Virus record (IMG/VR): IMGVR_UViG_3300042261_001430
Coordinates: 6,589-70,588 of that record
Source of the DNA: a virus
Length of the DNA: 64,000 bases
Direction: 5' to 3' (one strand)
Shown: piece by piece, positions 3,555-47,963 of the stretch
Numbering within the stretch: position 1 is the first letter of the stretch
Layout: every line of letters begins with the position of its first letter
The notes under the pieces: model-generated
Seen by the model: only the letters and a program-made list of their open reading frames with translations
Databases searched by the model: none
What the model was told of the DNA's origin: nothing
Position numbers and translations under genes: made by a program

Positions 3555-3556
3555 AA

Positions 3557-13169: not shown

Positions 13170-13787
13170 ATGGAAAAGATATTGTGTAGAACGGTCACAG
13201 GGTCTCATATGTGGGGAGATGAGAAACCCACGTCGGATCTTGATATTTCGGAGGTCTATGTGGTTCCTACAAAGACAATTTTGGAAGGAAGGCCATATGA
13301 TAAGACAAGACCACAGACAAAGAGTATAATCGCAGTACGCGATGTCGAAACAACATATTGGGAAGTGGGGCACCTTGTTGGCCAGCTTCTGAAAGGCAAT
13401 CAGAATGCTATTTGGGCGGTATGCAGTCCAAAAGTACTATGGACATGCCCCGAACATCGAGTGTTGGATGTCATCGTTCGTGAGAATGTAGCTAAGTGTA
13501 CATATCATTCAATCAAGGGGATGGCTACTTCGCAGTGGAAGGATGCCACCAAGAGGGGCCTTGGCATAAAGGGAATACGGTCCGCTTGGAGAACTGCTAA
13601 TTTCGGGTGCGACCTTCTCACGTTTGGTACTGTTGCATTTAATCGTACACCTGATTGGGTCGATGAGGAAGCACTTACCAAAAAGATGTATTTGCTGGAT
13701 CAAGCGTATGAGTCGAGTATGTTGCCTGAAAAACCAAACCCAGAACCGTTCTATGAGTTCATGTACAATCTTAGGTTAAATAGGTGA
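13170..13787 (+). CDS. Pol-beta superfamily nucleotidyltransferase (Nuc-transf/RlaP-like)
   Basis: TGSHMWG...SDLDISEVYV, WEVGHLVGQLLKGNQNA. Confidence 0.75.
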   Translation: MEKILCRTVTGSHMWGDEKPTSDLDISEVYVVPTKTILEGRPYDKTRPQTKSIIAVRDVETTYWEVGHLVGQLLKGNQNAIWAVCSPKVLWTCPEHRVLDVIVRENVAKCTYHSIKGMATSQWKDATKRGLGIKGIRSAWRTANFGCDLLTFGTVAFNRTPDWVDEEALTKKMYLLDQAYESSMLPEKPNPEPFYEFMYNLRLNR

Positions 13788-14152: not shown

Positions 14153-14398
14153 ATGTTATACCTATCTGAGCAGTCTTTGAGATTGTTCTTGGCGTATGCT
14201 GAGGATGCCGAAAATTGGGCCGGAACACCTTTAGTTGATGGAAATGTCAGAGGATCAAAGGAAGGTCGGGGAAATCTCACTGACTTAAAAAAGAAGGGAT
14301 TGATTACCACATTTCAACACAACAAAGAGATGTTTGTTGAGTTCACTGATGCTGGAATAGAACTTGCGAAGGAACATGGTATTATAATTGAGGAGTGA
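14153..14398 (+). CDS. small winged-helix-like protein (probably leaderless)
   Basis: LTDLKKKGLI...FTDAGIELA; ATG 30 nt after the TATA box. Confidence 0.6.
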   Translation: MLYLSEQSLRLFLAYAEDAENWAGTPLVDGNVRGSKEGRGNLTDLKKKGLITTFQHNKEMFVEFTDAGIELAKEHGIIIEE

Positions 14399-15579
14399 AA
14401 AATATGATGAAGATTAAGGAAACTGGAAAGCTGCCCATATATTCTTGGGCGTCTTATATTGAGGATGGGGCTGAGGCGCAGGCCATGAATCTAGCCTTAC
14501 ATCCTTTTACTGTTAATCACGTTGCCCTGATGCCGGACTGCCATTCGGGCTACGGGATGCCTATTGGTGGGGTAATTGCCACTAAGGGTGTAATTATCCC
14601 CAATGCTGTAGGTGTCGATATTGGATGTGGGATGCGCGCGGTACGCACTAATCTGAGGGAGCTTGATGTTTCGACCATTATCAAGATAGTGGAAAAGATA
14701 CAGGAGACCATTCCAGTTGGACATAATCACAACAAGGATGCTTTCCCCTTGATGATGCCTGAGAGGCCCAAGGGTGAGCTTGAAGTTGTCGAGAAGGAAT
14801 ATGATTCCGCGTGTCATCAGATAGGCACCTTGGGCGGTGGGAATCACTTTATAGAGCTTCAGAAGAGTTCTTTAGGTGATATTTGGATAATGGTCCATTC
14901 CGGAAGCCGGAATATAGGAAAGAAGGTTGCTGACCACTATCAGACCATCGCGAGGAAGTATACCGAGGAGTCTGATAATCCAATCCCAAAGGCGTGGGAG
15001 CTGGACTTTCTGCCTATGACCAGCATTGGTGATGTAGAGAGTCTTGGATTTAAGTACAAGAAGGAGATGCAATATTGTTTGGCATTCGCGAAGGCAAATA
15101 GACAGTTCATGATGCTCAGGATTCAAAACATCTTCCGTGAGATGGTGCCTGATGTTGAATTTGTTTGGGAGCATGACATTCATCACAATTATGCAGAGTG
15201 GGACCATATCGATGGAAAGTCCGTGTACATCCACAGGAAGGGTGCTACCTCCGCAAAGAAGGATCAGATGGGCATCATCCCTGGTTCGCAGGGGACTGCT
15301 TCGTATATTGTAGAGGGTCGTGGAAATCCGCAGTCTTTCCAGTCTTGTTCTCATGGTAGCGGGCGCAAGATGGGGAGAAATGAGGCAAAGAGGAAGCTGA
15401 GCCTTGATGAGCAGATGGCAATTCTCGATGAAAAGGGGATTGTTCATGGAATGAAGTCCGTCGCGAAGTTGGATGAAGCTCCAGGAGCTTACAAGGATAT
15501 TGAGGAAGTAATGGAGAATCAGGCAGACTTGGTAAAGAAGATCGTGAGATTGGAACCGATAGCAGTAATCAAGGGATGA
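14395..15579 (+). CDS. rtcB: RtcB RNA ligase (bacterial-type)
   Basis: MPDCHSGYG, VGVDIGCG, GTLGGGNHFIE, HSGSR, HHNY, HRKGAT, IPGSQG, SHGSGR, DEAPGAYK. Confidence 0.97.
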   Translation: MKNMMKIKETGKLPIYSWASYIEDGAEAQAMNLALHPFTVNHVALMPDCHSGYGMPIGGVIATKGVIIPNAVGVDIGCGMRAVRTNLRELDVSTIIKIVEKIQETIPVGHNHNKDAFPLMMPERPKGELEVVEKEYDSACHQIGTLGGGNHFIELQKSSLGDIWIMVHSGSRNIGKKVADHYQTIARKYTEESDNPIPKAWELDFLPMTSIGDVESLGFKYKKEMQYCLAFAKANRQFMMLRIQNIFREMVPDVEFVWEHDIHHNYAEWDHIDGKSVYIHRKGATSAKKDQMGIIPGSQGTASYIVEGRGNPQSFQSCSHGSGRKMGRNEAKRKLSLDEQMAILDEKGIVHGMKSVAKLDEAPGAYKDIEEVMENQADLVKKIVRLEPIAVIKG

Positions 15580-16110: not shown

Positions 16111-16467
16111 ATGTTGTATGAGCGAGGTATTTTTATGAAGAGAGTGGTTGTTTCAAATGATGCAAAAGAATTTGAGTATGTTGATGATGTTGATTATGAT
16201 AATAAGTTTGTTTTTATTCTATTAGGTGATGATATCGGTCGGCTCGATTTCAGGGGAGATTCACGAAAATATTACATGTACTGTATCACACGGGTAAGGT
16301 CTTATCCTTGGAACATTCAGTTTTACGATACGGCACGAGAATGTGTGAATATCGCAATCAATAGAGGTGCTACAGTATTTAGCTTCGATACATCCCAAGA
16401 AGCAATTGCGTGGATGTATGAAACATCGAAACTCTTAAATATCAAGAAAGGCAAGTATATGATATGA
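16111..16467 (+). CDS. hypothetical protein
   Basis: Stop overlaps the CCA start (ATGA). Confidence 0.55.
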   Translation: MLYERGIFMKRVVVSNDAKEFEYVDDVDYDNKFVFILLGDDIGRLDFRGDSRKYYMYCITRVRSYPWNIQFYDTARECVNIAINRGATVFSFDTSQEAIAWMYETSKLLNIKKGKYMI

Positions 16468-17819
16468 GTGTAGAACTTGCAAGAAAGATTGCCGCTGAAG
16501 TTGATAAGGTGGGCGGTAGTTCATACTTTACGGGTGGGTTTGCCCGTGATAAAATAATGGGAAAGTCCAATAAGGATATCGATATCGAGGTATACGGTCT
16601 TTGGCCGGAGGAACTTCGGGATCTTCTTAAGGGATTTGGTAAAAAGGTTGTTCTCGTTGGGGAATCCTTTGGTGTGTTCAAGATTGACGACCTCGATGTT
16701 GCAATTCCGAGGAAGGAAAAATCAACAGGCAGAAGCCACACTTCAATAGAGGTAGATTCAGATCCGTTCCTTGAACCAGAAGTCGCCGCGAGGAGAAGAG
16801 ACTTTACCAGAAATGCGATCATGATAAATGTGCTCACTGGTGATGTTCTTGATTTCTTTGGTGGCATACAAGACATCAGGGATAATATGGTCAGGATGAT
16901 CGACGAAAAGACATTTGTGGAAGATCCACTTAGATTTATCAGAGCTGCCAAGTTTGCCGCGAGGGATAATCTTATCATAAGCCATAAGACCGTACAGGCC
17001 ATCCAGAGGAACCGGATGGATGTAAAGAACCTTCCTATTGAAAGGGTGTTTGGTGAGGTTAGCGCGGTTCTTATGGACTCTCCGAAGCCTTCCTATGGCT
17101 TCTCTGTTATGGATCATCTCAGAGTCATGGAGCTTCTGCTTCCTGAGCTTTGGGTACTGGATTCCGTCGAGCAAAACCCGAAGTTCCATCCAGAAGGCAA
17201 CGTTGGAAACCATTGGCGAAAGACAATCGATTGGTCTCCTGTTGGCCAGAGGACACTGGTTGAGCAGCTTGCTAGGATGTGGCATGATGTAGGCAAGCTG
17301 TACGGTACAAAGAGACATGAAATGATCTCTGTTGATATCATTAAGGAGGCTTTCCCTCTTAGGCTGACCAATAATGCAGAGATCATAGATGAGGTTGTCA
17401 AAATCGTGGGCAACCACATGAAGCTCTACAATGGAAACGTTACGAGGGCGCGGGTAAAAAGGCTTGCATCTAAAGTTGATGTCTACAAAATTGTTGACAT
17501 GTACAGGGCCGATAAATTTAGTCGGGGCCTTGATCCTGAAGGACTTAAAGAAGATGAGGAACACCTTGCTAAAGTAATTAAGACCTTTGAAGATATCAAG
17601 AACGAAGTTGATCCGTTCATATTTGGAAGGGATATTATCGAGATGCGTCCCGACATCAAACCCGGTGAAGTATTTGGAAAAGTACTTAAGAGGGTTTACA
17701 AGGCACAACTTGATGATGAATTTACTGATGTAGATGGTGCCAAAATCTTCCTTAAGAATGTACTCGATGGGCTGCGAAAAGAGGCAGGAAAGTGGGTCAT
17801 GGATGAGGTGGATGAGTGA
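16464..17819 (+). CDS. cca: class II CCA-adding/poly(A) polymerase-family nucleotidyltransferase with HD domain
   Basis: GGFARD..DIDIEV, RRDFTRNA, EDPLRFIRAAKF, ERVFGE, HPEG, WHDVGK, C-terminal KPG..FG..L..AQLD. Confidence 0.9.
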   Translation: MSVELARKIAAEVDKVGGSSYFTGGFARDKIMGKSNKDIDIEVYGLWPEELRDLLKGFGKKVVLVGESFGVFKIDDLDVAIPRKEKSTGRSHTSIEVDSDPFLEPEVAARRRDFTRNAIMINVLTGDVLDFFGGIQDIRDNMVRMIDEKTFVEDPLRFIRAAKFAARDNLIISHKTVQAIQRNRMDVKNLPIERVFGEVSAVLMDSPKPSYGFSVMDHLRVMELLLPELWVLDSVEQNPKFHPEGNVGNHWRKTIDWSPVGQRTLVEQLARMWHDVGKLYGTKRHEMISVDIIKEAFPLRLTNNAEIIDEVVKIVGNHMKLYNGNVTRARVKRLASKVDVYKIVDMYRADKFSRGLDPEGLKEDEEHLAKVIKTFEDIKNEVDPFIFGRDIIEMRPDIKPGEVFGKVLKRVYKAQLDDEFTDVDGAKIFLKNVLDGLRKEAGKWVMDEVDE

Positions 17820-19862: not shown

Positions 19863-20789
19863 ATGATATCTGTAGGATTCTTTCATAAAAGTGACATAGA
19901 TGGTCATTGCAGCGGAGCAATTTTGAAGTATTGCATTCCGAATATTGAGTTGATCGCGATCGAACATGGCGACGATTTTCCGTGGGAAAAAATAAAGGAT
20001 GCCGATGAAGTATACATGGTCGATTTTAGCCTTCCGTTGGACGACATGATCAAACTTGCTCAAAAAATTTATGCAAATGGTGGTGAGTTCATTTGGATTG
20101 ATCACCACAAGTCGGCTATCGAAAGATTTGAGGCCAATCGTGATAAGTTTCCAAAAATTAAGGGCTTTAGGTCTGTCGATTTTGCGGCATGTGAGCTGAC
20201 TTGGAGACATCTTGTACCAGATAGGGATGTTCCCAGAGCGGTAGAATTGCTCGGAAAGTATGATACTTGGAGAAAGGGGAACTTGGTTGAGTGGCGGGAA
20301 GGCGTTGTGCCATATGAATACGGTATGCTTACTCGCGAAACAAACCCATCCAGAAATATGGAAATATGGTACGAAATATTTGACAAAAAACCGTTCGCCT
20401 TTATGGACAATCTTGAAATTGGACGTATCATTGACATTGGAAAAAATGTGATGGCGTATTTAGAGAGGCATGATGAAAAGAATGCAAGGCGTGGTGCTTA
20501 TCTCGTAGATATTGACGGGCTTAGAGGAATTGCAATTAATTCGGATACTCATTCTAGCAATGTATTGGAGTCGGTGTATAAGCCTACAGTACATGATGTC
20601 ATGGTAGTATATAGTCATACTCAGGATCAAGATTGGTATGTGTCTCTATATTCTACCAAAGATAGTGTTGATTGCTCTGCGATTGCCTCTAAGTTGGCTG
20701 AACAACAAAAGGGTATTGGTGGTGGCCACAAGGGGGCGGCGGGAATGACCGTGAAAAAGCTACCATTTGAAAAAGTTAAGGAGATATAG
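19863..20789 (+). CDS. DHH/DHHA1 phosphoesterase
   Basis: HKSDIDG, VDFS, IDHHKS, GGGHKGAAG. Confidence 0.9.
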   Translation: MISVGFFHKSDIDGHCSGAILKYCIPNIELIAIEHGDDFPWEKIKDADEVYMVDFSLPLDDMIKLAQKIYANGGEFIWIDHHKSAIERFEANRDKFPKIKGFRSVDFAACELTWRHLVPDRDVPRAVELLGKYDTWRKGNLVEWREGVVPYEYGMLTRETNPSRNMEIWYEIFDKKPFAFMDNLEIGRIIDIGKNVMAYLERHDEKNARRGAYLVDIDGLRGIAINSDTHSSNVLESVYKPTVHDVMVVYSHTQDQDWYVSLYSTKDSVDCSAIASKLAEQQKGIGGGHKGAAGMTVKKLPFEKVKEI

Positions 20790-21342: not shown

Positions 21343-22374
21343 ATGATAGTTAAAAGAAAACTTGCTTCGATTCAAATAGTTAGTGATGTTCAGCCTATTG
21401 ATGGAGCTGATAGAATAGAGGTAGCGCGCGTGCTTAATTGGAATGTAGTCGTTGGAAAGGGAGAGTTCAAGGCCGGTGACAAGTGCGTCTATTGTGAAAT
21501 TGATTCTGTGCTACCAGATTTTGCTGAATATGAATTTCTTAGGAAATCCTGCTATATTGATAAGAACGGGTTCAGAGGGTTTTTGATCAAGACTAAAAAA
21601 ATGAGGGGTATTATCTCACAGGGGTTGGTTTTACCGCTAACCGTTGAATACGGGATCGATGAACTTGCAGTAGGGACTGATGTCACTGACATTCTTGGGA
21701 TTGTGAAATACGACCCACCCCTTCCAGAATGCCTTGGTGGACTTGCTAAGGGCAATTTCCCATCTTGGATACCTTCTACCGATGAACTGCGGATTCAGGG
21801 CACCACGGGCGTATTACAGCGTCACAAAGGCAAGGTCTTCTATGTGACTGAGAAGATTGATGGGGTTTCAGCTACGTACTATCTTAAGGATGGAGAGTTC
21901 GGGGTTTGCTCCCGCAATTTAGAACTCAAAGAAACCGAGTCAAATACTTATTGGCATATCGCTAGAGTGCTGGATATAGAAGGGAAACTAAGACATTTTG
22001 GTATGAATATCGCGATTCAAGGAGAGATCTATGGAAAAGGCATCCAAAGAAATTACGGTCTACCAAATCAGCATTTTAGGGTATACAGTGTTTATGACTT
22101 GGAGAAAAATGAGTATCTTGGGTTCAGGGATGCACTCAGGTTAGTTGAAATGTTAGGTCTTGATTTTGTTCCTATCATTTATGATGTTTTAATCCTGGAT
22201 GAAGATATAAATGTGCTCCTTAAAATGGCATCTGAGTTTCCAAGTGCCATAAATGATGAGTTCGACATGGAAGGAATCGTTGTTAGGTCATACGAAGAGT
22301 CTACTGATATCGAATTAGGTAGATTGAGCTTCAAAGTCATTTCAAACGAAGATTTGATAAAGCGAAAGATATAA
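21343..22374 (+). CDS. ATP-dependent RNA ligase, DRB0094 family
   Basis: N-terminal RKLASIQ..PIDGADRIE..CEIDS..SQGL domain; ligase motifs TEKIDG, QGEIYG, EGIV, FKVIS. Confidence 0.92.
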   Translation: MIVKRKLASIQIVSDVQPIDGADRIEVARVLNWNVVVGKGEFKAGDKCVYCEIDSVLPDFAEYEFLRKSCYIDKNGFRGFLIKTKKMRGIISQGLVLPLTVEYGIDELAVGTDVTDILGIVKYDPPLPECLGGLAKGNFPSWIPSTDELRIQGTTGVLQRHKGKVFYVTEKIDGVSATYYLKDGEFGVCSRNLELKETESNTYWHIARVLDIEGKLRHFGMNIAIQGEIYGKGIQRNYGLPNQHFRVYSVYDLEKNEYLGFRDALRLVEMLGLDFVPIIYDVLILDEDINVLLKMASEFPSAINDEFDMEGIVVRSYEESTDIELGRLSFKVISNEDLIKRKI

Positions 22375-41021: not shown

Positions 41022-41784
41022 CATATTAAAGAATGCAGATGAGTTGGCATCGATTTGGAGAGAGTCGTATGCAGGCGATGCTATGATCCCGTTTGAAGAG
41101 TTTCATGCTGAGGGTATCAAAAAGAGCTTTTTTGAATTGCTCGATGAGGTTAAGAGGCTCAGGGAAGAAGTTAGTGACAAAAAGGAAGAAGTCGAGGATT
41201 GTAATGCAAGTGTTGATGCATATAAAGAAATGTTAAATAGAGTTGTTTCGTTGAAGGATCGCTATGGGATTTTGATTCGCGATCATGCTAGGGATAAGAT
41301 TAAGCTAAAGGCTGAGCGAGATGATTTTGAGAAAAAATATTTGTGGATGTGTAATAATGCGGCAAATGAAAAACTCGATGGGTACAGGAAGCTGGGACAG
41401 CGAGCGGCTGATGCCGAAAATCGGTGTGATGAACTTGAAAGATTGTATGGTATGTCAAAACGTACTATCGGTAGGCTTAGTGCTTCTCAGCAATCACTAT
41501 TAAGGGAAATTAGTTATTGGAAGGATGTCGCGACGGAGGAACACGCAAGAAGCATTCCAGCATGTTGTAAATACGATAGCATGGATGGAAAATGTGATAT
41601 TACTTCTACCGGTGGGTGGTGTAGTGATTGTTCTCAGCCCAATAAGATTCGCGAACGCGCACGAACAGAATTAATGAAGTCGTATAATGCTGGTTTTTTG
41701 GCATATATACCAAAGATGCCTTACAGACCGCCATTACCAAAACGATACTTTGCTGATATGCTAGAAGAGGAATTGGATGAGTGA
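41014..41784 (+). CDS. coiled-coil hypothetical protein
   Basis: Long heptad-rich region. Confidence 0.6.
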   Translation: MSDILKNADELASIWRESYAGDAMIPFEEFHAEGIKKSFFELLDEVKRLREEVSDKKEEVEDCNASVDAYKEMLNRVVSLKDRYGILIRDHARDKIKLKAERDDFEKKYLWMCNNAANEKLDGYRKLGQRAADAENRCDELERLYGMSKRTIGRLSASQQSLLREISYWKDVATEEHARSIPACCKYDSMDGKCDITSTGGWCSDCSQPNKIRERARTELMKSYNAGFLAYIPKMPYRPPLPKRYFADMLEEELDE

Positions 41785-41795
41785 GTGAAATAATA

Positions 41796-41811
41796 CCGAA
41801 AAGTATAAATA
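41796..41811 (+). promoter_or_regulatory. archaeal promoter for the ncRNA cluster
   Basis: CCGAAAAG-TATAAATA; hairpin GCGGTG-TGATGT-CACCGC at the predicted +1. Confidence 0.75.
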
Positions 41812-41856
41812 CTAGATGTGATATCTAGGTATTGTGCGGTGTGATGTCACCGCCTC

Positions 41857-41994
41857 GCCCAGATGGTCTAGTTAGGTCCATGACGCCAAAATTTCTGAGC
41901 TAGATATTCTCTTACATTTAATGATGTAGGTAGTGAATAGTTCAGTTACTCCTTTTTGGAAGGGGAAACTTGGGTTCAAATCCCAATCTGGGCA
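41857..41994 (+). ncRNA. tRNA-shaped Y-RNA-like RNA 1 (Gln(UUG)-like anticodon arm, ~63-nt insert after the D arm)
   Basis: Acceptor GCCCAGA/TCTGGGC+A, D arm, T arm TTGGG-TTCAAAT-CCCAA, arm CTCCT-TTTTGGA-AGGGG; shared 24-nt motif at 41929-41952. Confidence 0.8.
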
Positions 41995-41997
41995 TCG

Positions 41998-42110
41998 TCT
42001 CTAAGCAGTGAAGTTATCGGCTACTTCTGGTAAATACAACAACGCTCCCTGTAGAGGTGCAGGGACAATATATATTTAAGTGATGCTGATAGCGATTATT
42101 CTCTTTGAGA
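41998..42110 (+). ncRNA. Y-RNA-like RNA 2 (no tRNA module)
   Basis: Motif at 42004-42027; GTTATCGGC pairs with GCTGATAGC; internal hairpin TCCCTGTA/TGCAGGGA. Confidence 0.7.
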
Positions 42111-42127
42111 CACATAATTTTTGTTGT

Positions 42128-42258
42128 GGAGCAGAAGCGCGATAGGCTCAGCGCAACTAACACCGTGGCAGCAATTCTCTGATCAAATCGGTAGTGAATG
42201 CCACAGTTACTTCTTGCCGAAAAAAGAAATGGGAGAGTTCGAATCTCTCTCTGCTCCT
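42128..42258 (+). ncRNA. tRNA-shaped Y-RNA-like RNA 3
   Basis: Acceptor GGAGCAGA/TCTGCTCC, D stem GCGC/GCGC, T arm GAGAG-TTCGAAT-CTCTC, motif at 42190-42213; anticodon-like loop degenerate (8 nt). Confidence 0.78.
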
Positions 42259-42280
42259 TATTATAATATTTGAGGTTGTT

Positions 42281-42766
42281 ATGAAAGCACCGGATTATGA
42301 ACATATTAAAGAACTCGAAGTTGCGATAGATCGTATTATTAATCGTAATAATCGTATGATCATGGCGCGAAAAATGGAATCAAGTTGCGAAGCAGCGGCT
42401 AGTCTTTCTCTCACGGCTGGGATTTTAGAAACTCACGTTGGTAGATATTGTGCAATTCCTGAAATTCATAATAATGATGCGGCAGTCACAGAATCTAAAT
42501 CAGATTCAAATAGGAGTGTATCGTATGGGTTTGATTATGTTACTGGATGTCATGGTTTCTCAAGTTATGACATATGTTTCCAGCTAACAAATGACATGGA
42601 TGATATCATTAGATCTGTCCTTGCACCCAATGAATATGATTATAGTTATTGGAAATCCCATAGAATGGGATTCACGTCTCTGCCTTCATCATCAAATGAC
42701 AATGGCATGACATGGAAAAATTGTAACGAATTTAAATTCAAATCTCTTCATCGAAAGCCTAGTTAA
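42281..42766 (+). CDS. hypothetical protein with N-terminal PDY..I..LE motif
   Basis: GAGG RBS then MKAPDYEHIKELE; the track's upstream extension overlaps RNA 3. Confidence 0.6.
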   Translation: MKAPDYEHIKELEVAIDRIINRNNRMIMARKMESSCEAAASLSLTAGILETHVGRYCAIPEIHNNDAAVTESKSDSNRSVSYGFDYVTGCHGFSSYDICFQLTNDMDDIIRSVLAPNEYDYSYWKSHRMGFTSLPSSSNDNGMTWKNCNEFKFKSLHRKPS

Positions 42767-42804
42767 AACGAAATGCTTAAATAGTTGTAAGATAACAGAT
42801 GTTT

Positions 42805-42947
42805 GCTCGGTTAGCTCAGTCTGGTAGAGCGTCCGATTATGAGGCCGTATTCGAAATTTAGTTTATCCTCCTAGATTAGGTGGTATTGCAGAGTACGGAT
42901 ACTTCTTGAGGATCAGAAGGTCGCCGGTTCAAATCCGGCACCGAGCC
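42805..42947 (+). ncRNA. tRNA-shaped Y-RNA-like RNA 4 (insert within the anticodon loop)
   Basis: GCTCGGT/ACCGAGC, TAGCTCAGTCTGGTAGAGC D arm, AGGTC-GCCGG-TTCAAAT-CCGGC; motif at 42882-42905; own promoter at 42768-42783. Confidence 0.8.
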
Positions 42948-42973
42948 TTGCGGTGAAATATCCGCGATAAAAC

Positions 42974-43042
42974 GTGGGGTAGTGCAGAGAGCGAATACAT
43001 CTTTCGCTAAAAAGGACCATCGCTCTCGACTCTTCTCCTCAT
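42974..43042 (+). ncRNA. minimal Y-RNA-like RNA 5
   Basis: GTGGGG/CCTCAT closing stem, GAGAGCGA/TCGCTCTC helix, motif at 42978-43001. Confidence 0.7.
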
Positions 43043-43052
43043 GGTGATAATT

Positions 43053-44633
43053 ATGGGATACTTAAATCCGACAAAAAAGATAGAAGACACAAGCCACCTT
43101 AACTTTATGGGTGGAAGATCATACGACATCAATGATCCTGTATTGAGATTGAAAGTAGCGGCAGCTTCGTCATTCTTTGGTGAGCCAATGTATTACCATC
43201 GCGATGAGGAAGATAAGAGGAAGGTAAAGTTTAATCCAATATCGAGGCTCGACGACCGTCAGGTAGAACATCTGAGAAAAACGTTGGATGCTAAAGATCC
43301 TCGCGAGTGGCGTGGGATGACCCCAAAGACTTTGATGGAATCTGCTATCGATGCAGCTTTGAAGCACGATCCAATTGCTACACTGGAGCTTGCTATTCAA
43401 TTGAGGCATGTTGATAATATCAGAGTCACTCCTCAAGTAATTCTTGTAAGAGCTGCTAAGTTGCTGAAGGGCACCGGAGCTATCAGAGATTATGGTGCTG
43501 GAATTGTTAAGAGGTTAGACGAGCCTGCTATTGGTCTAGCGTACCAATTGAGTGAATTTGGAAAGCCAATACCAAACTCCCTAAAGAGGCTTTGGAAGGA
43601 TAAGTTAGAGGAAGCTGATGCTCCTTACCTCGCGAAATATCAGTTGGAAAACAGGTTTGTAAAAACCAAGGATGTTATCAAATTGGTTCATCCAAAATCA
43701 GATGCAGTTGATATATTCATGAAGGGTGAAGTTACCAATGATGGCAATACATGGGAAGCAATTGTTTCTAAGGGAGGATCAAATACCGAGAGTTGGACAA
43801 AAGCAGTAGGCATCATGCAACATATGGGAATATTGAGAAATTTGTCCAACCTAGTTAAGCATAAAGTGGACCCAAAATTATATGTGGATAAACTAATTGG
43901 TGGGGTAGCTGGTGGTCGTCAGTTGCCGTTCCGGTATCTTTCAGCATATAATGCAATTGAAAAGATTGCGCCGCCATCAGTCTTAGATGCCCTTGAATCA
44001 TGTATGGAGAAGGCCATTGAGAACGTGCCTACATTCGCTGGCAGAACAATGTCCCTATGTGATAACTCAGGGTCCGCTAGAAATACCACAACATCTTCAA
44101 TGGGTACCATGAGAATGTCAAAGATTGCCAATCTGAGCGCGGTAATTACTGGAAAGGTATCTGATGAAGGTTATATTGGTGTGTTTGGGGATAGGTTGGC
44201 AACTGCCGCTATTCGCAAGAAGGCATCAATATTCGATCAAGTAAAGGATGCTGATCAGGCCGGTTCCAAAGTGGGGCAATCCACTGAAAATGGTATTTGG
44301 TTGTTTTGGAAAAACGCAATCAGTAACAAGGAACATTGGGATAACGTATTCGTTTATTCTGATATGCAGGCGGGGCATGGGGGCCTATATGGTATAGATC
44401 CAAGCGAGTATCGTGACTATCAGTGGTTTGGTACACGAAATATTGACGTGCCAAAGTTAATTGCGCAGTATCGAAACAAAGTTAATTCAAATGTTAACGT
44501 GTTTTTGGTGCAGGTCGCTGGATATCAGGATACAATCATACCAGAGTTTTATAATAAGACTTATATATTGGGTGGTTGGTCCGCTGGAGTGTTGAACTTT
44601 GCTCATTCGATGATCGAGAGCAACCAACACTAA
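43053..44633 (+). CDS. Ro60/Rsr-family TROVE + vWA RNA-binding protein
   Basis: TROVE features (DPIATLELAIQLRH..NIRVTP, RLDEP, LAKYQ, KDVIKLVHPK, TWE, LRNLSNL, QLPFRYLSAY), vWA MIDAS CDNSGS, SDMQ; GGTGA RBS. Confidence 0.93.
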   Translation: MGYLNPTKKIEDTSHLNFMGGRSYDINDPVLRLKVAAASSFFGEPMYYHRDEEDKRKVKFNPISRLDDRQVEHLRKTLDAKDPREWRGMTPKTLMESAIDAALKHDPIATLELAIQLRHVDNIRVTPQVILVRAAKLLKGTGAIRDYGAGIVKRLDEPAIGLAYQLSEFGKPIPNSLKRLWKDKLEEADAPYLAKYQLENRFVKTKDVIKLVHPKSDAVDIFMKGEVTNDGNTWEAIVSKGGSNTESWTKAVGIMQHMGILRNLSNLVKHKVDPKLYVDKLIGGVAGGRQLPFRYLSAYNAIEKIAPPSVLDALESCMEKAIENVPTFAGRTMSLCDNSGSARNTTTSSMGTMRMSKIANLSAVITGKVSDEGYIGVFGDRLATAAIRKKASIFDQVKDADQAGSKVGQSTENGIWLFWKNAISNKEHWDNVFVYSDMQAGHGGLYGIDPSEYRDYQWFGTRNIDVPKLIAQYRNKVNSNVNVFLVQVAGYQDTIIPEFYNKTYILGGWSAGVLNFAHSMIESNQH

Positions 44634-45016: not shown

Positions 45017-46231
45017 ATGGATGCGATAAATAATATAAGCAAGGAAGACATGCTAACTTTATATCATAAGTTAGGGTCGTTTGAAGAATGTGCAAAGAAG
45101 GTCAAGTGCAGTGCTCGCGCATGGGCTCAGCGTTGGGCAGTTTTGAATTGTGAAGATTTGATTGGATGTAAAGATTTTATGGACCCATGCATTAAACCAG
45201 CTCGCGGCGAGGGTCATGTAAATGCGAATTCATATCCAAAGAAAAAAGTAGCATCAGGAAAGTGCAAATGTACTAATTGCAATTGTGATAAAGAGGTTCT
45301 TATGCCGGTTTCAGACTCAGGTGGATGGGCAAATCCTGTTTCCTTGAATGGGACGTGTAATACATATTCAACCCTTATTAGCAAGTATATTAATAAAGAA
45401 AATGCCACTGTTGTACCCAAAGACGAATCAGAATGTAGAGAGTTTTGGGAGAAAGAAGCCACCCCTCTGAAGAGTGAGTATGACCCCAGCTCTGAGCGAT
45501 ATGAAATTGCCTTCATCTCAGACATGCATTTTGGTTCAACACATCAACAGTTAAATGTGTTAAATAATTTCGTTGAATTATGCTACGAAAGGGATATTAG
45601 GACACTCTTAAACGCCGGTGATATATCTGAGGGCCTGATGCCAAGGGTAGGCGCAAAAAATGATAGATTTTTGCATGTTATCGACGATTTGACCGATTAT
45701 TGCGTTGAAAATTTGCCAGATGGGTTTGATATTAATGCATTCATACTCGGAAATCATGATGATTCGATGGGTACTAGGTGTGACGGATTTGATATTGGTA
45801 AGGCAGTCGAAATGGCCCGTGGTGATTTGACATATTTGAAGTCAAATACTTTGCCGGACATGGTAAAGGTTGACGGCGGAATAAATGTTCAACTGTTTCA
45901 TGGCACGGGCGGATGTACTAAATTTAGATCAACCAGAACTCAAAATAAGACATTTGAGTTGATGGCAATGTCAAGGCAACCTGATATTATCGCATTTGGC
46001 CACTGTCATCTTACGAGCATGATCCCTAGATATTGTGGTACTTATGTCTATGGTTTGGGGTGTTTCCAATCACAAACAAAGTACCTCGCGGACAAAATGA
46101 TGGAACCTGATATCTGTGGCCTTATTGTAGGTTATAATATTAATGAGACCACGGGAAAGATGGTCAACGTTAGCTCTGAATTTGTTTATGCTGAAGAACT
46201 TGGCGGAATTCACAAAAACGATTTCATCTAA
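45017..46231 (+). CDS. calcineurin-like metallophosphoesterase with N-terminal HTH-like region
   Basis: SDMHFG, AGDISEG, GNHD, FHG, GHCH. Confidence 0.88.
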   Translation: MDAINNISKEDMLTLYHKLGSFEECAKKVKCSARAWAQRWAVLNCEDLIGCKDFMDPCIKPARGEGHVNANSYPKKKVASGKCKCTNCNCDKEVLMPVSDSGGWANPVSLNGTCNTYSTLISKYINKENATVVPKDESECREFWEKEATPLKSEYDPSSERYEIAFISDMHFGSTHQQLNVLNNFVELCYERDIRTLLNAGDISEGLMPRVGAKNDRFLHVIDDLTDYCVENLPDGFDINAFILGNHDDSMGTRCDGFDIGKAVEMARGDLTYLKSNTLPDMVKVDGGINVQLFHGTGGCTKFRSTRTQNKTFELMAMSRQPDIIAFGHCHLTSMIPRYCGTYVYGLGCFQSQTKYLADKMMEPDICGLIVGYNINETTGKMVNVSSEFVYAEELGGIHKNDFI

Positions 46232-46332
46232 CCTTTTTACTTTTTACAGCATTAGTACAATTGCTAGGAGGTTATTAAATTAAGAAGAGATCAGTACCGT
46301 TATTAGAACTAGCAAATACGACTAAAACCGAT

Positions 46333-47226
46333 ATGCTAAAGATTTATGCAAAATGTGGTGGAAAGTTTATAGATTGTGCGAAATCGATAAAGGTATCAAA
46401 GACCGCGTGGACAAAAAGGTGGTATGACATCGGTCTTAAAAAACCAGACATGTCGTTGAACTGGAAGATATCAGACGAAAATTATGATCAGGTTGCTATA
46501 ATAAGCGATCTCCACTTAGGAAATTTTTACCAACAGAGAAAATGCATAAATAATTTCATAAAAATTTGTAAAGAAAGATCGATAGATACACTGCTTTGTG
46601 GTGGGGATATAACAGATGGTATGATGAACTACCCAAGCCACGAGAAAGAGAGGTTCTTACACTCTCCATATTCTTATGAAGAGTACTGTGAGGATAATTA
46701 TCCTGATGGTTTTAAAAATAATTGTATTATATCAGGAAATCATGACAATAGCCTCACTGCATATGAAAACAGCAGTTATGATTTTTGTAGAAGTTTATCT
46801 AAGGTCAGAAAGGATCTGATCTATCATAAAGCCGGTGATGATAACGTTACCAAGGCGTTTGACGTGGCTGGCGGCGTAAAAATTTTGCTTTATCATGGAA
46901 GCAATTGCGCGAATCCTGCAATCGGGCAAAAACGCGAACCGAGGCTTCAACAAAAGACGGCAGAAATGCTATCAAACGATAGCAAATTTAACATTGCTAT
47001 CTATGGGCATTGTCATAGAAGGTGTACAACGAATTTCATGGAAAAATATATTCTTGGAGTTGGATGTTTCATTGCTGATACCCCATATCAAGTTGATCGG
47101 GGAACGCATGGAGATATATGTGGATTAATATTAAAATATGCTTCTAATAAAGGTGAGGTCACAGCAATGGAGGCCGAGTATATAACACTAGAGAGTTTGG
47201 GCGGCATTCGACGGAGGGACTTTTAA
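46333..47226 (+). CDS. calcineurin-like metallophosphoesterase (tandem paralog)
   Basis: SDLHLG, GGDITDG, GNHD, YHG, GHCH. Confidence 0.88.
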   Translation: MLKIYAKCGGKFIDCAKSIKVSKTAWTKRWYDIGLKKPDMSLNWKISDENYDQVAIISDLHLGNFYQQRKCINNFIKICKERSIDTLLCGGDITDGMMNYPSHEKERFLHSPYSYEEYCEDNYPDGFKNNCIISGNHDNSLTAYENSSYDFCRSLSKVRKDLIYHKAGDDNVTKAFDVAGGVKILLYHGSNCANPAIGQKREPRLQQKTAEMLSNDSKFNIAIYGHCHRRCTTNFMEKYILGVGCFIADTPYQVDRGTHGDICGLILKYASNKGEVTAMEAEYITLESLGGIRRRDF

Positions 47227-47324
47227 ATGATAACAATTCATCGAGAGGAAATAAAAATACCATCTGGAATATTCGAAGTTATTATTTTGGATGAAGAGTG
47301 CGAAGATTTTAGGTATGATAATAT

Positions 47325-47963
47325 ATGATAATAAGAGATTCAAATTTTTTTGGAACAAAGGAAACCGATCATGGGAGATATTACTATCTGAAGAATGATC
47401 CAAATACATTGTTTCCAAGTGTGTCAACAGTTGTTAAAGGGAGTAATAAGTCGGGTGGGTGGTGTTCACCATATGCAGCGATTGGAAGCATTGTACACTG
47501 GCGAATCTTGAAATGCTATGCTGATAGACAGTTGCCAAGGCCCACGGACCCAATATATAAGATGGCCCCAGACGAGGCCCGCAGGAGAATCGAGGCTTGC
47601 GTCGCGATGTGGGACAAACTCCAGTTGAAGATAAAACCGATATGCGTAGAAACCGCACTATTTTCCGATGATCCGAGGATTGCGGGTAGAATGGACATGT
47701 TTTGCAGACTGGATGGCAAGAGGACTCTTCTCGATATCAAGACGGGAAAGGAGTATAAAGAAAACTATACACAAACCTCAGCCTATGTACACATGTTGAA
47801 GTGGGCAGTCGATCAGGCAGCTCTCGTTTATCTAGATGCTGATTTGACTAGAAACCCTGAGCAGCTAGGAAGAGTTAAGATCATAGAAAAGGGTGAGCTG
47901 AAAGAACACTTCGATGTTTTTAGAAATAAATACCTCGACTTTGAGATGCCAGAAGCAATTTAA
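47325..47963 (+). CDS. PD-(D/E)XK exonuclease
   Basis: PSVSTV, GSIVH, VET, AGRMD, DIKTG, QTSAY. Confidence 0.8.
   Translation: MIIRDSNFFGTKETDHGRYYYLKNDPNTLFPSVSTVVKGSNKSGGWCSPYAAIGSIVHWRILKCYADRQLPRPTDPIYKMAPDEARRRIEACVAMWDKLQLKIKPICVETALFSDDPRIAGRMDMFCRLDGKRTLLDIKTGKEYKENYTQTSAYVHMLKWAVDQAALVYLDADLTRNPEQLGRVKIIEKGELKEHFDVFRNKYLDFEMPEAI

What the first reader, a model, noticed from the sequence alone, without database searches (positions are those of the whole stretch)
41857..42947. Three tRNA/Y-RNA chimeras circularly permuted relative to YrlA, with free acceptor ends and an internal Ro-type stem
Seen: RNAs 1, 3 and 4 run acceptor 5' strand, D arm, partner strand of the shared helix, small hairpin, 24-nt motif, anticodon-like arm, T arm, acceptor 3' strand. 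The strand order of the shared stem is reversed relative to RNAs 2 and 5, where the motif is at the 5' end. Both permutations therefore coexist in one locus. Established: in bacterial YrlA the RNA ends form the Ro-binding stem and the tRNA-like acceptor stem is closed by a loop. Inference: these are tRNA-ended Y RNAs that could be processed by RNase P/Z, receive CCA from the viral enzyme and perhaps be charged. They may act as Ro60-tethered decoys for anticodon nucleases or as adaptors for the viral ligases, and may be an evolutionary link between tRNA and YrlA. I do not know of a description of this arrangement but could not search the literature.
Basis: partly seen in the sequence, partly recalled or inferred. 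Interest (0 to 1): 0.92.

Follow-up and report, generated by a model that had tools for sequence, protein, structure and literature searches.

The report
tRNA-shaped Y RNAs beside viral Ro60
Just upstream of its Ro60 gene this virus encodes three small RNAs built like complete tRNAs, except that the anticodon arm is replaced by the hairpin that Y RNAs probably use to dock onto Ro60; the same design recurs in many phages and bacteria, and I found no paper that describes it.

Summary
RNA1 (41857-41994), RNA3 (42129-42257) and RNA4 (42805-42947) each have a 7-bp acceptor stem formed by their own ends, a D arm, a long loop-closed hairpin, a variable arm and a T arm.

The hairpin carries the conserved core (UAUUCUC opposite G(U)AGUGA, then UUACUUC). 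In the neighbouring RNAs 2 and 5, and in canonical YrlA-order RNAs, this core lies at the RNA termini.

A covariance model built only from 20 relatives in other phage contigs and bacterial genomes hits exactly these three sites in the 64-kb window. Scores are 63-66 bits, E about 1e-12 to 1e-13, end to end.

I counted 47 distinct members: 24 viral and 23 bacterial, the latter mostly Myxococcota such as Sorangium. They lie beside or in the same record as TROVE/Ro60 genes.

RNAs 2 and 5 are YrlB-like and have no tRNA domain.

The hairpins are not archaeal-type introns: bulge-helix-bulge motifs are no more frequent than in shuffles.

Processing, CCA addition, Ro60 binding and function are inferred, not shown. 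No paper I could read describes this gene order. Burroughs & Aravind 2016, two Wolin-lab reviews and all supplements were closed.

This scan has noted the same design on other DNA (e1-5596806, e1-5486589).

The parts
41798..41814 (+). promoter-like element (A-rich stretch followed by GTATAAATA) about 45 nt upstream of RNA1
   Evidence: Sequence read. It matches the post hoc motif list. No sigma-70-like site lies on the + strand of 41600-43200. Function is inferred.
41857..41994 (+). RNA1: tRNA-order Y RNA. Acceptor 41857-41863 / 41987-41993, D arm 41866-41884 (three pairs plus U.U), Ro-type hairpin 41895-41945, V arm 41949-41965, T arm 41970-41986.
   Evidence: R1 66.2 bits, E 4e-13, model positions 1-131 of 131. 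Fold z-score -3.96. A related strain's contig carries two compensatory double changes in the hairpin tip. Coordinates.
41997..42111 (+). RNA2: YrlB-like Y RNA. Motif at the 5' end (42004-42027), partner strand at the 3' end (42094-42111), no T or D arm.
   Evidence: Fold closes the 5' and 3' ends, z-score -3.66. Motif coordinates. No R1 match.
42129..42257 (+). RNA3: tRNA-order Y RNA. Acceptor 42129-42135 / 42250-42256, D stem GCGC, hairpin 42163-42206, V arm 42211-42228 (8-nt loop), T arm 42233-42249. Only one nucleotide links acceptor and D stem.
   Evidence: R1 63.2 bits, E 2e-12, positions 1-131 of 131, with one deletion at position 8. Found by ARAGORN with introns only at the relaxed threshold -ps90.
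42281..42766 (+). 161-aa ORF inside the RNA array, no family assigned
   Evidence: 0 Pfam families at E<=0.01.
42770..42784 (+). promoter-like element (AAATGCTTAAATAGT); its TATA-like box is centred about 26 nt before the first base of RNA4
   Evidence: Sequence read. Matches the motif list. Function is inferred.
42805..42947 (+). RNA4: tRNA-order Y RNA with the most canonical tRNA body and a divergent core (UUAUCCUCC / GGUGGUAUUG). Acceptor 42805-42811 / 42940-42946, D arm 42814-42830, hairpin 42845-42898, V arm 42902-42919 (8-nt loop), T arm 42923-42939.
   Evidence: R1 66.4 bits, E 3.7e-13. Rfam tRNA 49.2 bits with a 73-nt insertion.
42973..43043 (+). RNA5: short YrlB-like stem with the motif at 42978-43001 and the partner at 43025-43038. 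It abuts the Ro60 ribosome-binding site.
   Evidence: Fold z-score -3.66 for 42948-43052. Coordinates.
43041..44633 (+). Ro60/TROVE protein gene. The more likely start is the in-frame ATG at 43053, which follows GGTGAT.
   Evidence: Pfam TROVE E 7.5e-08. 39.8% identity over 95% of its length to Bacillus phage G gp540. E 3.2e-15 to Thermus phage phiLo Ro60 structures 9KOP and 9L5Y.
16464..17819 (+). class II nucleotidyltransferase (CCA-adding / poly(A) polymerase family), the candidate supplier of the CCA that none of the three RNAs encodes
   Evidence: Pfam PolyA_pol E 6.8e-18 and PolyA_pol_RNAbd E 1.3e-08. The 3' flanks are TCG, TTA and TTG.
14395..15579 (+). RtcB RNA ligase, part of the virus's RNA-repair gene set (context)
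   Evidence: Pfam RtcB E 5.4e-108. One search also found RlaP at 13170-13787, DHH at 19863-20789 and an RNA ligase at 21343-22374.

Best explanation
RNAs 1, 3 and 4 belong to a widespread, apparently uncatalogued subclass of YrlA-type Y RNAs written in tRNA gene order. Each is a full tRNA body: a 7-bp acceptor stem made by the RNA's own ends, a D arm, a long variable arm and a T arm. The anticodon arm is replaced by a 44-54-nt loop-closed hairpin. That hairpin contains the conserved core 5'-UAUUCUC / 3'-AGUGA(U)G, a bulged helix next to an internal loop. In RNAs 2 and 5 and in canonical YrlA/YrlB-type RNAs this core sits at the RNA termini, and it corresponds to the proposed Ro60-docking site.

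Shown here: the architecture, its covariation, family membership, and linkage to Ro60 genes.

Inferred:
1. The RNAs are transcribed in two units (RNA1-RNA2-RNA3-ORF, and RNA4-RNA5-Ro60).
2. They are excised like tRNAs by RNase P and a 3' tRNA-processing nuclease. The same cuts would free the ends of the abutting RNAs 2 and 5.
3. They receive CCA from the viral nucleotidyltransferase.
4. They bind the viral Ro60 through the hairpin.
5. They present a real tRNA elbow and acceptor end to tRNA-binding partners. Candidates are the virus's RtcB or other ligases, its CCA enzyme, host PNPase, or host anticodon nucleases, so that the RNA acts as scaffold or decoy in RNA repair or counter-defence.

They cannot decode, because there is no anticodon loop.
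For: Membership:
- R1, built without any window sequence, hits only these three sites: 3 of 3 matches at E<=1 in 64 kb, 63-66 bits, full length.

Structure, on the 20 non-window members:
- 93.8% of 593 cells are paired against 68.7% in shuffles, with 0 of 500 shuffles reaching the observed value. Slid partners give 39-46%.
- Two helices were not used to select the sequences. P1 has 7 of 8 pairs with changes on both sides. The core/P2 helix has 6 of 6.
- A 151-nt contig of a related strain from a metatranscriptome run differs from RNA1 at 41914/41927 (A-U to G-C) and 41915/41926 (C-G to U-A). Both keep the hairpin pairs. A further change at 41923 turns U.G into U-A.

Same module as Y RNAs:
- Motif and partner strand recur at the termini of RNAs 2 and 5.
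- They also recur in canonical-order RNAs next to a 57%-identical Ro60 in L003.
- The layout 'motif, then YUAY, then V, then T' matches Chen 2014.

Ro60 linkage:
- The RNAs lie 0.1-1.2 kb upstream of the TROVE gene on the same strand.
- In 7 of 7 bacterial loci examined, a TROVE ORF lies next to the tRNA-order RNA on the same strand.
- 5 of 5 viral records whose short loci showed no Ro60 do encode TROVE elsewhere, against 2 of 14 control genomes.

Processing precedent:
- M. smegmatis YrlA, which has a 7-bp acceptor stem, is cut by RNase P and gains CCA in vivo (Chen 2014).
- RNA-library contigs bridge RNA1/RNA2/RNA3 (41961-42152) and RNA3/ORF (42205-42352).
- The virus encodes a CCA-family enzyme and RtcB.

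Function hints:
- A phage Ro60-like protein (Bas63 gp130) counters the ppl defence system (preprint 10.1101/2024.10.10.617714, passages).
- YrlA has been proposed as a competitive inhibitor of an anticodon nuclease (PMC7790460, passages).
Against: - No end, CCA tail, Ro60 binding or partner was observed.
- The RNA-library contigs are Logan contigs at depth 3-4. They cannot show ends or strand, and may come from DNA carried in the library.
- The core motif is RGUGA, not the published GNCGAA. Rfam's YrlA model (RF02553) gives no hit in 41700-43100 even at E<=10.
- RNA1 has a U.U in its D stem. RNA3 lacks U8 and has a 1-nt linker. Their tRNA bodies may therefore be poor substrates for tRNA enzymes.
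- RNA4's core is divergent.
- Acceptor-stem and T-stem pairing were selection criteria in my scripts, so their 100% pairing is not independent evidence.
- R1 also scores ordinary tRNAs at 38-53 bits by skipping the hairpin. The cut-off I used for counting (at least 57 bits and 115 nt) was chosen after seeing the output.
- The host is unknown.
Confidence: 0.65

Rival explanations
1. They are intron-containing tRNA genes. The hairpin would be removed by a splicing endonuclease and the halves joined by the viral RtcB, giving ordinary decoding tRNAs.
For:
- The window's promoter-like motifs resemble archaeal BRE/TATA elements, and archaea splice tRNA introns.
- The virus encodes RtcB.
Against: - Bulge-helix-bulge arrangements are no more frequent than in shuffles: 4, 1 and 3 found against means of 3.8, 1.2 and 4.2. 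None flanks the hairpin base.
- The 'intron' is the most conserved part of the family and equals the Y-RNA motif.
- The same design occurs in bacterial chromosomes, for example Sorangium, Polyangium and Anaerolineae, and in a phage contig that encodes tmRNA. [quoted passage not shown]
- The side arms of RNA3 and RNA4 have 8-nt loops, and side-arm length varies widely across the family.
Confidence: 0.05
2. The tRNA shape serves only as processing punctuation. RNase P and RNase Z cuts at these elements would release the real effectors (RNAs 2 and 5, and the mRNAs), and the excised tRNA-like RNAs would have no role of their own.
For: - RNA2 starts 3 nt after RNA1's discriminator, and RNA5's region starts directly after RNA4.
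- Y RNAs are co-transcribed with tRNAs and processed from polycistronic precursors in D. radiodurans and M. smegmatis (Chen 2014).
- Contigs from RNA libraries bridge the junctions.
Against: - A plain tRNA would do for punctuation, yet the internal hairpin with the docking core is conserved and covaries across 47 members.
- In 7 of 7 bacterial loci examined, a tRNA-order RNA lies next to a TROVE gene on the same strand. In several of them it is the only Y-type RNA I identified next to Ro60, but I did not search those loci for YrlB-type RNAs.
Confidence: 0.1
3. The hairpin docks a protein other than Ro60. This would make the RNAs akin to the predicted band-7-associated tRNA-like RNA (b7a-tRNA) of RtcB repair systems, which is said to be occasionally encoded next to Rsr.
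For: [quoted passage not shown]
- Band_7 proteins occur in 3 of 5 viral records that carry tRNA-order RNAs.
Against: - No Band_7 match in this viral record, which is only about 50% complete.
- Band_7 is common anyway, present in 13 of 14 control genomes.
- The hairpin core is shared with RNAs that flank Ro60 genes.
- I could not read Burroughs & Aravind 2016, so I cannot say what b7a-tRNA looks like.
Confidence: 0.08
4. They are decaying tRNA genes hit by insertion of a Y-RNA-like repeat and have no function.
For: RNA1 and RNA3 have imperfect D arms. Their scores on the Rfam tRNA model are below threshold (20.9 bits) or absent.
Against: - Full-length matches to a family model built from unrelated genomes.
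- Compensatory changes in a natural variant.
- 7 of 7 acceptor pairs in all three RNAs.
Confidence: 0.03

Closest known systems
YrlA (Y RNA-like A; Rfam RF02553; Chen et al. 2014, PMC4201824; Wang et al. 2018 preprint 10.1101/312249)
   Same: - Encoded near Ro60/Rsr and on the same strand.
- A purine-rich docking motif is followed by YUAY, then a V arm, then a T arm with GGUUCRAnUCC, and there is a D arm with tRNA-like conserved bases.
- The Ro stem occupies the anticodon-arm position of a tRNA-like L.
- Occurs in bacteria and phages.
   Different: - Gene order is that of a tRNA. The acceptor stem is formed by the RNA ends and is 7 bp long. The Ro stem is closed by a loop. In YrlA it is the other way round.
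- The motif is RGUGA rather than GNCGAA.
- RF02553 gives no hit here and only 16.7-21.9 bits, against a 69-bit threshold, on canonical-order relatives in L038.
RNase P-cleaved, CCA-tailed YrlA of Mycobacterium smegmatis (Chen et al. 2014)
   Same: A Y RNA with a 7-bp acceptor stem that ends up with tRNA-like free acceptor ends and CCA, while bound to Rsr.
   Different: In M. smegmatis the open acceptor arises by cutting a canonical-order transcript and yields a two-piece RNA. Here the open acceptor is written in the gene and the product would be a single chain.
Yrn1 of Deinococcus radiodurans
   Same: A Y RNA whose tRNA-like elements have a different order from YrlA. Alternative topologies therefore already exist within Ro60 partner RNAs (Chen 2014).
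   Different: As I read Chen 2014, in Yrn1 the RNA ends form the Ro helix, which then sits where a tRNA's acceptor stem would be, and an anticodon-like arm lies between the D-like and T arms. Here the Ro helix replaces the anticodon arm and the ends form a true acceptor stem.
YrlB / Yrn2-type short Y RNAs; Yrl1 and Yrl2 of Thermus phage phiLo (PMC12135203)
   Same: RNAs 2 and 5 of this locus fit this type: a 5'/3' stem with the motif, and no full tRNA domain. The phage Ro60 is related (E 3.2e-15).
   Different: RNAs 1, 3 and 4 carry a complete tRNA body.
Class II (long-variable-arm) tRNAs and intron-containing or permuted archaeal and algal tRNA genes
   Same: Acceptor, D, long V and T arms in tRNA order.
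   Different: No anticodon loop and no bulge-helix-bulge motif. The inserted part is conserved and is shared with Y RNAs.
b7a-tRNA (Burroughs & Aravind 2016; known to me only through the Discussion of Wang 2018)
   Same: A predicted tRNA-like RNA of RNA-repair loci, said to be occasionally adjacent to Rsr.
   Different: It is associated with Band-7 proteins and RtcB. Its structure could not be checked because the paper is not held. It remains possible that part of what I describe was seen there.

Membership tests
tRNA-order Y RNA class (defined here by model R1) | Full-length match to a covariance model built from members in other genomes | tested here: met
   66.4, 66.2 and 63.2 bits, each covering positions 1-131 of 131. 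These are the only 3 matches at E<=1 in the window.
tRNA-order Y RNA class (defined here by model R1) | 7-bp acceptor stem formed by the two ends, plus an internal loop-closed hairpin with the UAUUCUC / G(U)AGUGA core followed by UUACUUC | tested here: met
   7 of 7 acceptor pairs in all three RNAs. Core coordinates. RNA4's core is divergent (UUAUCCUCC / GGUGGUAUUG).
YrlA (RF02553) | Encoded within a few kb of Ro60/Rsr on the same strand | tested here: met
   The TROVE gene at 43041-44633 (+) begins 94-1047 nt after the three RNAs end.
YrlA (RF02553) | GNCGAAN0-1G motif on the strand that leads into YUAY, V arm and T arm | tested here: inconclusive
   The motif is GUAGUGAA (RNAs 1 and 3) or GGUGGUAU (RNA4), followed by UUAC/AUAC, a V arm and a T arm. 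The layout is the same, but the sequence differs at two positions by transitions.
YrlA (RF02553) | 5' and 3' ends form the Ro-binding stem; the acceptor-like stem is closed by a loop | tested here: not met
   The reverse holds: the ends form the acceptor stem and the Ro-type stem is loop-closed.
YrlA (RF02553) | Score at or above the Rfam gathering threshold (69 bits) | tested here: not met
   No RF02553 match in 41700-43100 at E<=10.
YrlA (RF02553) | Bound by Ro60/Rsr in vivo or in vitro | not testable with these tools
   Needs immunoprecipitation or a gel-shift assay.
tRNA (RF00005) | Cloverleaf at or above the 29-bit gathering score | tested here: inconclusive
   RNA4 scores 49.2 bits, but only with a 73-nt insertion. 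RNA1 scores 20.9 bits, below threshold, in a different register. RNA3 has no hit. Default ARAGORN finds 0 of 3.
tRNA (RF00005) | 5-bp anticodon stem with a 7-nt loop between D arm and variable region | tested here: not met
   That position is occupied by the 44-54-nt hairpin.
Archaeal intron-containing tRNA gene | Bulge-helix-bulge motif at the exon-intron junctions | tested here: not met
   4, 1 and 3 loose BHB arrangements against shuffle means of 3.8, 1.2 and 4.2. None lies at the base of the hairpin.
Ro60/TROVE protein (the partner gene) | TROVE domain and similarity to solved Ro60 structures | tested here: met
   PF05731 at E 7.5e-08, 32.4 bits against a 23-bit cut-off. PDB entries 9KOP and 9L5Y at E 3.2e-15.

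The most novel reading that the evidence does not exclude
The tRNA-order form would be the ancestral Y RNA: a tRNA whose anticodon arm became a Ro60 docking hairpin. Canonical YrlA would then have arisen from tandem copies by moving the transcript ends, as in the 'dimeric tRNA' model. The form would still work as a tRNA-like substrate. It would be cut by RNase P and RNase Z, CCA-tailed and possibly charged, and so would tether Ro60 to tRNA-handling enzymes or soak up host anticodon nucleases during infection.

Points in favour:
- Tandem tRNA-order copies are common: L137, L163, L190, L161, L196, L267, L331 and L301.
- Two viruses whose Ro60 proteins are 57% identical use opposite orders: this window against L003.
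Probability: 0.25. Interest if true: 0.8.

Novelty: new variant of a known kind. Interest (0 to 1): 0.62.

Why it matters
Bacterial Y RNAs are thought to derive from tRNAs. YrlA has been described as resembling a circularly permuted tRNA, with a proposed origin from dimeric tRNA transcripts (Wang 2018). A natural, widespread Y RNA that keeps tRNA gene order bears directly on that model.

It also makes several open questions testable in cultured organisms, for example Sorangium cellulosum So ce56 (locus L288):
- Is the tRNA module a substrate of RNase P, RNase Z, the CCA enzyme or aminoacyl-tRNA synthetases?
- What does the tRNA elbow recruit to Ro60?
- Why do phages with large RNA-repair gene sets carry several such RNAs?

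On the practical side, default ARAGORN finds none of the three and Rfam's tRNA model reaches threshold for only one. With introns allowed, ARAGORN reports them as intron-bearing tRNAs. Genome annotations are therefore likely to miss them or mislabel them.

Tried and rejected
**Searches that found nothing useful**
- DNA similarity of 41700-43100 to 50,697 phage records: no match.
- Rfam at gathering and at E<=10: no Y-RNA family hit in the region. This says little, because RF02553 scores even canonical-order relatives in L038 at only 16.7-21.9 bits.

**The two isolates with the closest Ro60 (about 40% identity)**
- Bacillus phage G has five YrlB-like repeats upstream of gp540. I saw no tRNA-order form by eye, and R1 gave no hit at E<=1e-9 in that locus (L223).
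- Nitratidesulfovibrio phage SRB7757 shows no UACUUC-type motif in the 2.5 kb upstream of its Ro60.

**My first classifier**
- The regex classifier accepts any 7-of-7 pairing 35-160 nt upstream. By my own estimate that arises by chance in roughly one candidate in eight. This explains the 'both?' class (17 of 148; 14 viral and 21 cellular).
- For that reason I recounted with the covariance model.
- One row (L179) was dropped before alignment A1 as doubtful. L206 was kept in A1 but left out of A3. L138, L139, L174, L188, L137b, L189b and L147a were also left out of the training alignment A3.

**Host**
- A post hoc list of BRE/TATA-like words is strand-biased: 37 overlapping hits on +, 4 on -, shuffle mean 9.3.
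- A generic pattern is not enriched: 6 on +, 3 on -, shuffle mean 6.06.
- The archaeal-host idea stays a lead only. PolB has 24% identity to haloarchaeal virus polymerases and also similar weak hits in phages.

**RNA libraries**
- No contig covers 42353-43060. That is not evidence of absence.
- Four runs of one study hold only 9-11% of the sampled words.

**Papers not held, so their content is unknown to me**
- Sim et al. 2020 (PMC10870794).
- Sim & Wolin 2018 (PMC6047535).
- Burroughs & Aravind 2016 (PMC5062991 and its DOI).
- Supplements of Chen 2014 were closed. They list the 254 species and 22 phages and may include members of this class.

**Basis for 'not in print'**
- It rests on searches.
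- It also rests on reading the whole Results and Discussion of Chen 2014 and the Discussion of Wang 2018.
Full report
**What is there**

The window is part of a 70.6-kb viral contig, about 50% complete by CheckV. At 43041-44633 (+) it encodes a Ro60/TROVE protein. The evidence:
- Pfam TROVE at E 7.5e-08.
- 39.8% identity over 95% of its length to Bacillus phage G gp540.
- E 3.2e-15 to the solved Thermus phage phiLo Ro60.

Further upstream lie RtcB, an RlaP-type nucleotidyltransferase, a CCA/poly(A)-polymerase-family enzyme, a DHH phosphoesterase and an RNA ligase. Two metallophosphoesterases and a PD-(D/E)XK nuclease follow Ro60.

The 1.2 kb before Ro60 holds five structured RNAs and one 161-aa ORF with no Pfam family.

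**The observation**

RNA1 (41857-41994), RNA3 (42129-42257) and RNA4 (42805-42947) each begin and end with seven mutually complementary bases. All three show 7 of 7 pairs.

Between these ends come, in order (coordinates):
- a D arm;
- a strand containing UAUUCUC (UUAUCCUCC in RNA4);
- a small hairpin;
- the strand G(U)AGUGAA...UUACUUC;
- a side arm;
- a T arm with the GGUUCRAAUCC signature.

How the standard tools see them:
- Default ARAGORN sees none of them.
- With introns allowed it calls RNA1 and RNA4 at its default threshold and all three at -ps90. It reads them as long-variable-arm tRNAs with 55-, 35- and 53-nt 'introns' in the anticodon arm.
- Rfam's tRNA model hits RNA4 at 49.2 bits with a 73-nt insertion. 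It hits RNA1 at only 20.9 bits in another register.

In RNA2 (41997-42111) and RNA5 (about 42973-43043) the same two strands occur in the opposite order. The motif is at the 5' end and the partner at the 3' end, and neither RNA has a T or D arm.

**What the parts correspond to**

Chen et al. 2014 describe YrlA as follows (PMC4201824, Results and Discussion read in full):
- a 5' GNCGAAN0-1G motif, thought to be the Rsr contact;
- a conserved YUAY that begins the V loop;
- a V arm, then a T arm;
- a loop-closed 'acceptor' hairpin;
- a D arm, then the 3' strand.

The window RNAs read: acceptor 5' strand, D arm, partner strand, loop, RGUGA motif, UUAC/AUAC, V arm, T arm, acceptor 3' strand. This is the same circle of elements opened at the acceptor stem instead of at the Ro stem.

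Three observations fit this reading:
- Its 5' strand is part of the conserved UUACUUC.
- Its length varies from almost nothing to about 40 nt across relatives.
- In RNA3 and RNA4 its loop has 8 nt.

RNA1's 7-nt loop reading UUG looks like coincidence within this family.

**Relatives**

Scanning IMG/VR with two motif patterns gave 115 and 118 stretches. The same pattern in one-genome-per-species contigs gave 120.

Many hits are arrays of Y-type RNAs among tRNA genes. A script sorted the RNAs that have both motif and T arm:

| Set | RNAs | YrlA order | tRNA order | tRNA order, with a weak hairpin too | Both readings | Unclear |
|---|---|---|---|---|---|---|
| Viral | 146 | 87 | 24 | 4 | 14 | 17 |
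| Cellular | 141 | 90 | 11 | 6 | 21 | 13 |

That classifier has a sizeable chance rate, so I built a covariance model, R1, from 20 tRNA-order sequences. Eleven came from viral loci and nine from bacterial loci; none came from this window.

R1 finds exactly RNA4, RNA1 and RNA3 in the window, at 66.4, 66.2 and 63.2 bits. E-values are 3.7e-13 to 2e-12, and every match is full length.

Over all 344 loci plus the window, I counted hits of at least 57 bits and 115 nt. Ordinary tRNAs reach 38-53 bits by skipping the hairpin. The results:
- 55 distinct sequences pass the cut-off.
- 47 of them have 7 of 7 acceptor pairs and the motif: 24 viral from 15 loci, and 23 cellular from 19 loci.
- 20 of the 47 are the training set.

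By record title, the cellular carriers are mostly Myxococcota: Sorangium cellulosum So ce56, two other Sorangium strains, Polyangium, and Nannocystaceae and Myxococcaceae MAGs. There are also Anaerolineae and Bacilli MAGs.

**Structure support**

On the 20 non-window members:
- 93.8% of 593 cells form standard pairs, against 68.7% in shuffles. None of 500 shuffles reached the observed value.
- With slid partners, 39-46% are paired.

Acceptor-stem and T-stem pairing were selection criteria, so the informative helices are the two inside the hairpin:
- P1 has 8 pairs, 7 with changes on both sides, 83.8% paired.
- The core/P2 helix has 6 pairs, all 6 with changes on both sides, 90.8% paired.

The core is C-U-C paired with G-(bulged U or C)-A-G, next to an internal loop of conserved UAUU opposite UGA.

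Independent support comes from a 151-nt contig of a related strain in a metatranscriptome run. It differs from RNA1 as follows:
- 41914 A>G with 41927 T>C turns an A-U pair into G-C.
- 41915 C>T with 41926 G>A turns a C-G pair into U-A.
- 41923 G>A turns U.G into U-A.
- 41931 changes the bulged U to C.

The same call shows that the spacer between RNA2 and RNA3 (42106-42125) carries many substitutions and small deletions.

**Link to Ro60**

- In 7 of 7 bacterial loci examined, a TROVE ORF lies next to the tRNA-order RNA on the same strand. The loci are L288, L246, L255, L304, L271, L275 and L301.
- A single-query tblastn found Ro60 in 9 of 22 viral tRNA-order loci. Many of those loci are short.
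- For five of the loci without a hit, the whole viral record encodes TROVE in 5 of 5 cases, against 2 of 14 control genomes.
- The nearest Ro60 relative (57% identity, L003) has two canonical-order YrlA-like RNAs and three YrlB-like RNAs with the same motif. It has no strong tRNA-order hit. The order therefore differs between fairly close relatives.
- L060, a 225-kb phage contig that also encodes tmRNA, holds both orders. Its tRNA-order copy ends in an encoded ACCA.

**Not introns**

- Loose bulge-helix-bulge arrangements are as frequent in shuffled sequences.
- The inserted part is the most conserved part of the family.
- The design is common in bacteria. Wang 2018 notes that no splicing endonuclease of the archaeal or eukaryotic kind has been reported there.

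The host of this virus is unsettled:
- There are no sigma-70-like sites on the + strand of the region.
- There is a recurrent A-rich-plus-TTTAAATA motif upstream of genes, RNA1 and RNA4.
- Only a post hoc pattern is enriched, and a generic one is not.

**How it probably works**

Shown: the architecture, the covariation and the linkage to Ro60.

Inferred: the two promoter-like elements drive RNA1-RNA2-RNA3-ORF and RNA4-RNA5-Ro60. Contigs from RNA libraries bridge RNA1/RNA2/RNA3 and RNA3/ORF. They cannot prove transcription or show ends.

RNase P and a 3' tRNA nuclease would cut at the acceptor stems, as they do for M. smegmatis YrlA, whose 7-bp acceptor stem is cleaved and CCA-tailed in vivo. 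The same cuts would free the ends of the abutting RNAs 2 and 5.

None of the three window RNAs encodes CCA; their flanks are TCG, TTA and TTG. Across the family the 3' flank starts with C in 37 of 47 members: CAA 14, CCG 7, CTT 6, CCA 4. The viral nucleotidyltransferase is the obvious supplier of CCA.

The hairpin would dock Ro60, and the tRNA elbow and acceptor end would engage tRNA-binding proteins.

Published hints on function:
- Ro60, Y RNA and PNPase form complexes (Chen 2014; phiLo paper PMC12135203, passages).
- YrlA has been suggested as a competitive inhibitor of an anticodon nuclease (PMC7790460, passages).
- A phage Ro60-like protein counters the ppl defence system (preprint, passages).

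I commit to 'Ro60-bound scaffold or decoy with a real tRNA body, matured by tRNA enzymes'. My confidence is about 0.9 for what the RNAs are and about 0.4 for the mechanism, or 0.65 taken together.

**Comparison and novelty**

The nearest family is YrlA. One defining feature, ends in the Ro stem with a closed acceptor hairpin, was tested and is not met, and RF02553 does not score these RNAs. I therefore file them as a new topological variant of the Ro60-partner RNAs, alongside YrlA and Yrn1, which already differ in topology.

The concept is close to what the Wolin laboratory has written:
- YrlA 'resemble circularly permuted tRNAs'.
- YrlA may derive from dimeric tRNA transcripts.

I found no description of a genomically tRNA-ordered form. 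This rests on searches. I could not open Burroughs & Aravind 2016, two Wolin-lab reviews or any supplement, and the b7a-tRNA 'occasionally adjacent to Rsr' could overlap with this class.

Earlier notes of this scan describe the same design on other DNA and reached the same reading (e1-5596806, e1-5486589).

Noticed in passing
window, upstream of many + strand genes, e.g. 23464, 35959, 44957, 41798, 42770: A recurrent A-rich stretch followed by a TTTAAATA-like box lies 30-60 nt before start codons and before RNA1 and RNA4, resembling archaeal BRE/TATA promoters. A post hoc word list is strand-biased (37 hits on + against 4 on -, shuffle mean 9.3). A generic pattern is not enriched (6 against 6.06). 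The host domain stays open.
   Followed up: partly
window 41839-42352: Six short contigs from four metatranscriptome runs of one study (90-99% identical) cover RNA1, RNA2, RNA3 and the first 70 nt of the ORF. Their differences cluster in the RNA1 hairpin tip, where they are compensatory, and in the RNA2-RNA3 spacer.
   Followed up: yes
3' flanks of 47 tRNA-order RNAs (loci): The base after the discriminator is C in 37 of 47 members, with CAA 14, CCG 7, CTT 6 and CCA 4. This suggests a partly encoded CCA end in many members. The three window copies lack it.
   Followed up: partly
L223 (Bacillus phage G) 2690-3380: Five tandem YrlB-like repeats (GAWGCGG...ACAGYTACTTC with a downstream partner ending ATCTCA) fill the 1-kb unannotated gap upstream of gp540, the phage's TROVE protein.
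   Followed up: no
L003 2660-3960: The virus with the closest Ro60 (57% identity) carries, upstream of that gene, an array of ordinary tRNAs, two canonical-order YrlA-like RNAs (about 3463-3600 and 3715-3860) and three YrlB-like RNAs with the same motif.
   Followed up: partly
window 42281-42766: A 161-aa ORF with no Pfam match sits inside the RNA array, between RNA3 and the RNA4 promoter-like element.
   Followed up: no
window 45017-47963: Two calcineurin-like metallophosphoesterases and a PD-(D/E)XK nuclease follow Ro60 directly. They may be RNA end-healing enzymes of the same module.
   Followed up: no
L157 8179-8354, L158 3160-3335, L185 704-879, L327 6445-6827: R1 gives 58-64-bit hits of 170-210 nt. 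They may be tRNA-order members with much longer insertions, or composites of neighbouring RNAs. I did not resolve them.
   Followed up: no
window 42948-42967: A small hairpin (UUGCGG...CCGCGA) with a GGUGAAAU loop lies between RNA4 and RNA5. It resembles a fragment of the motif.
   Followed up: no
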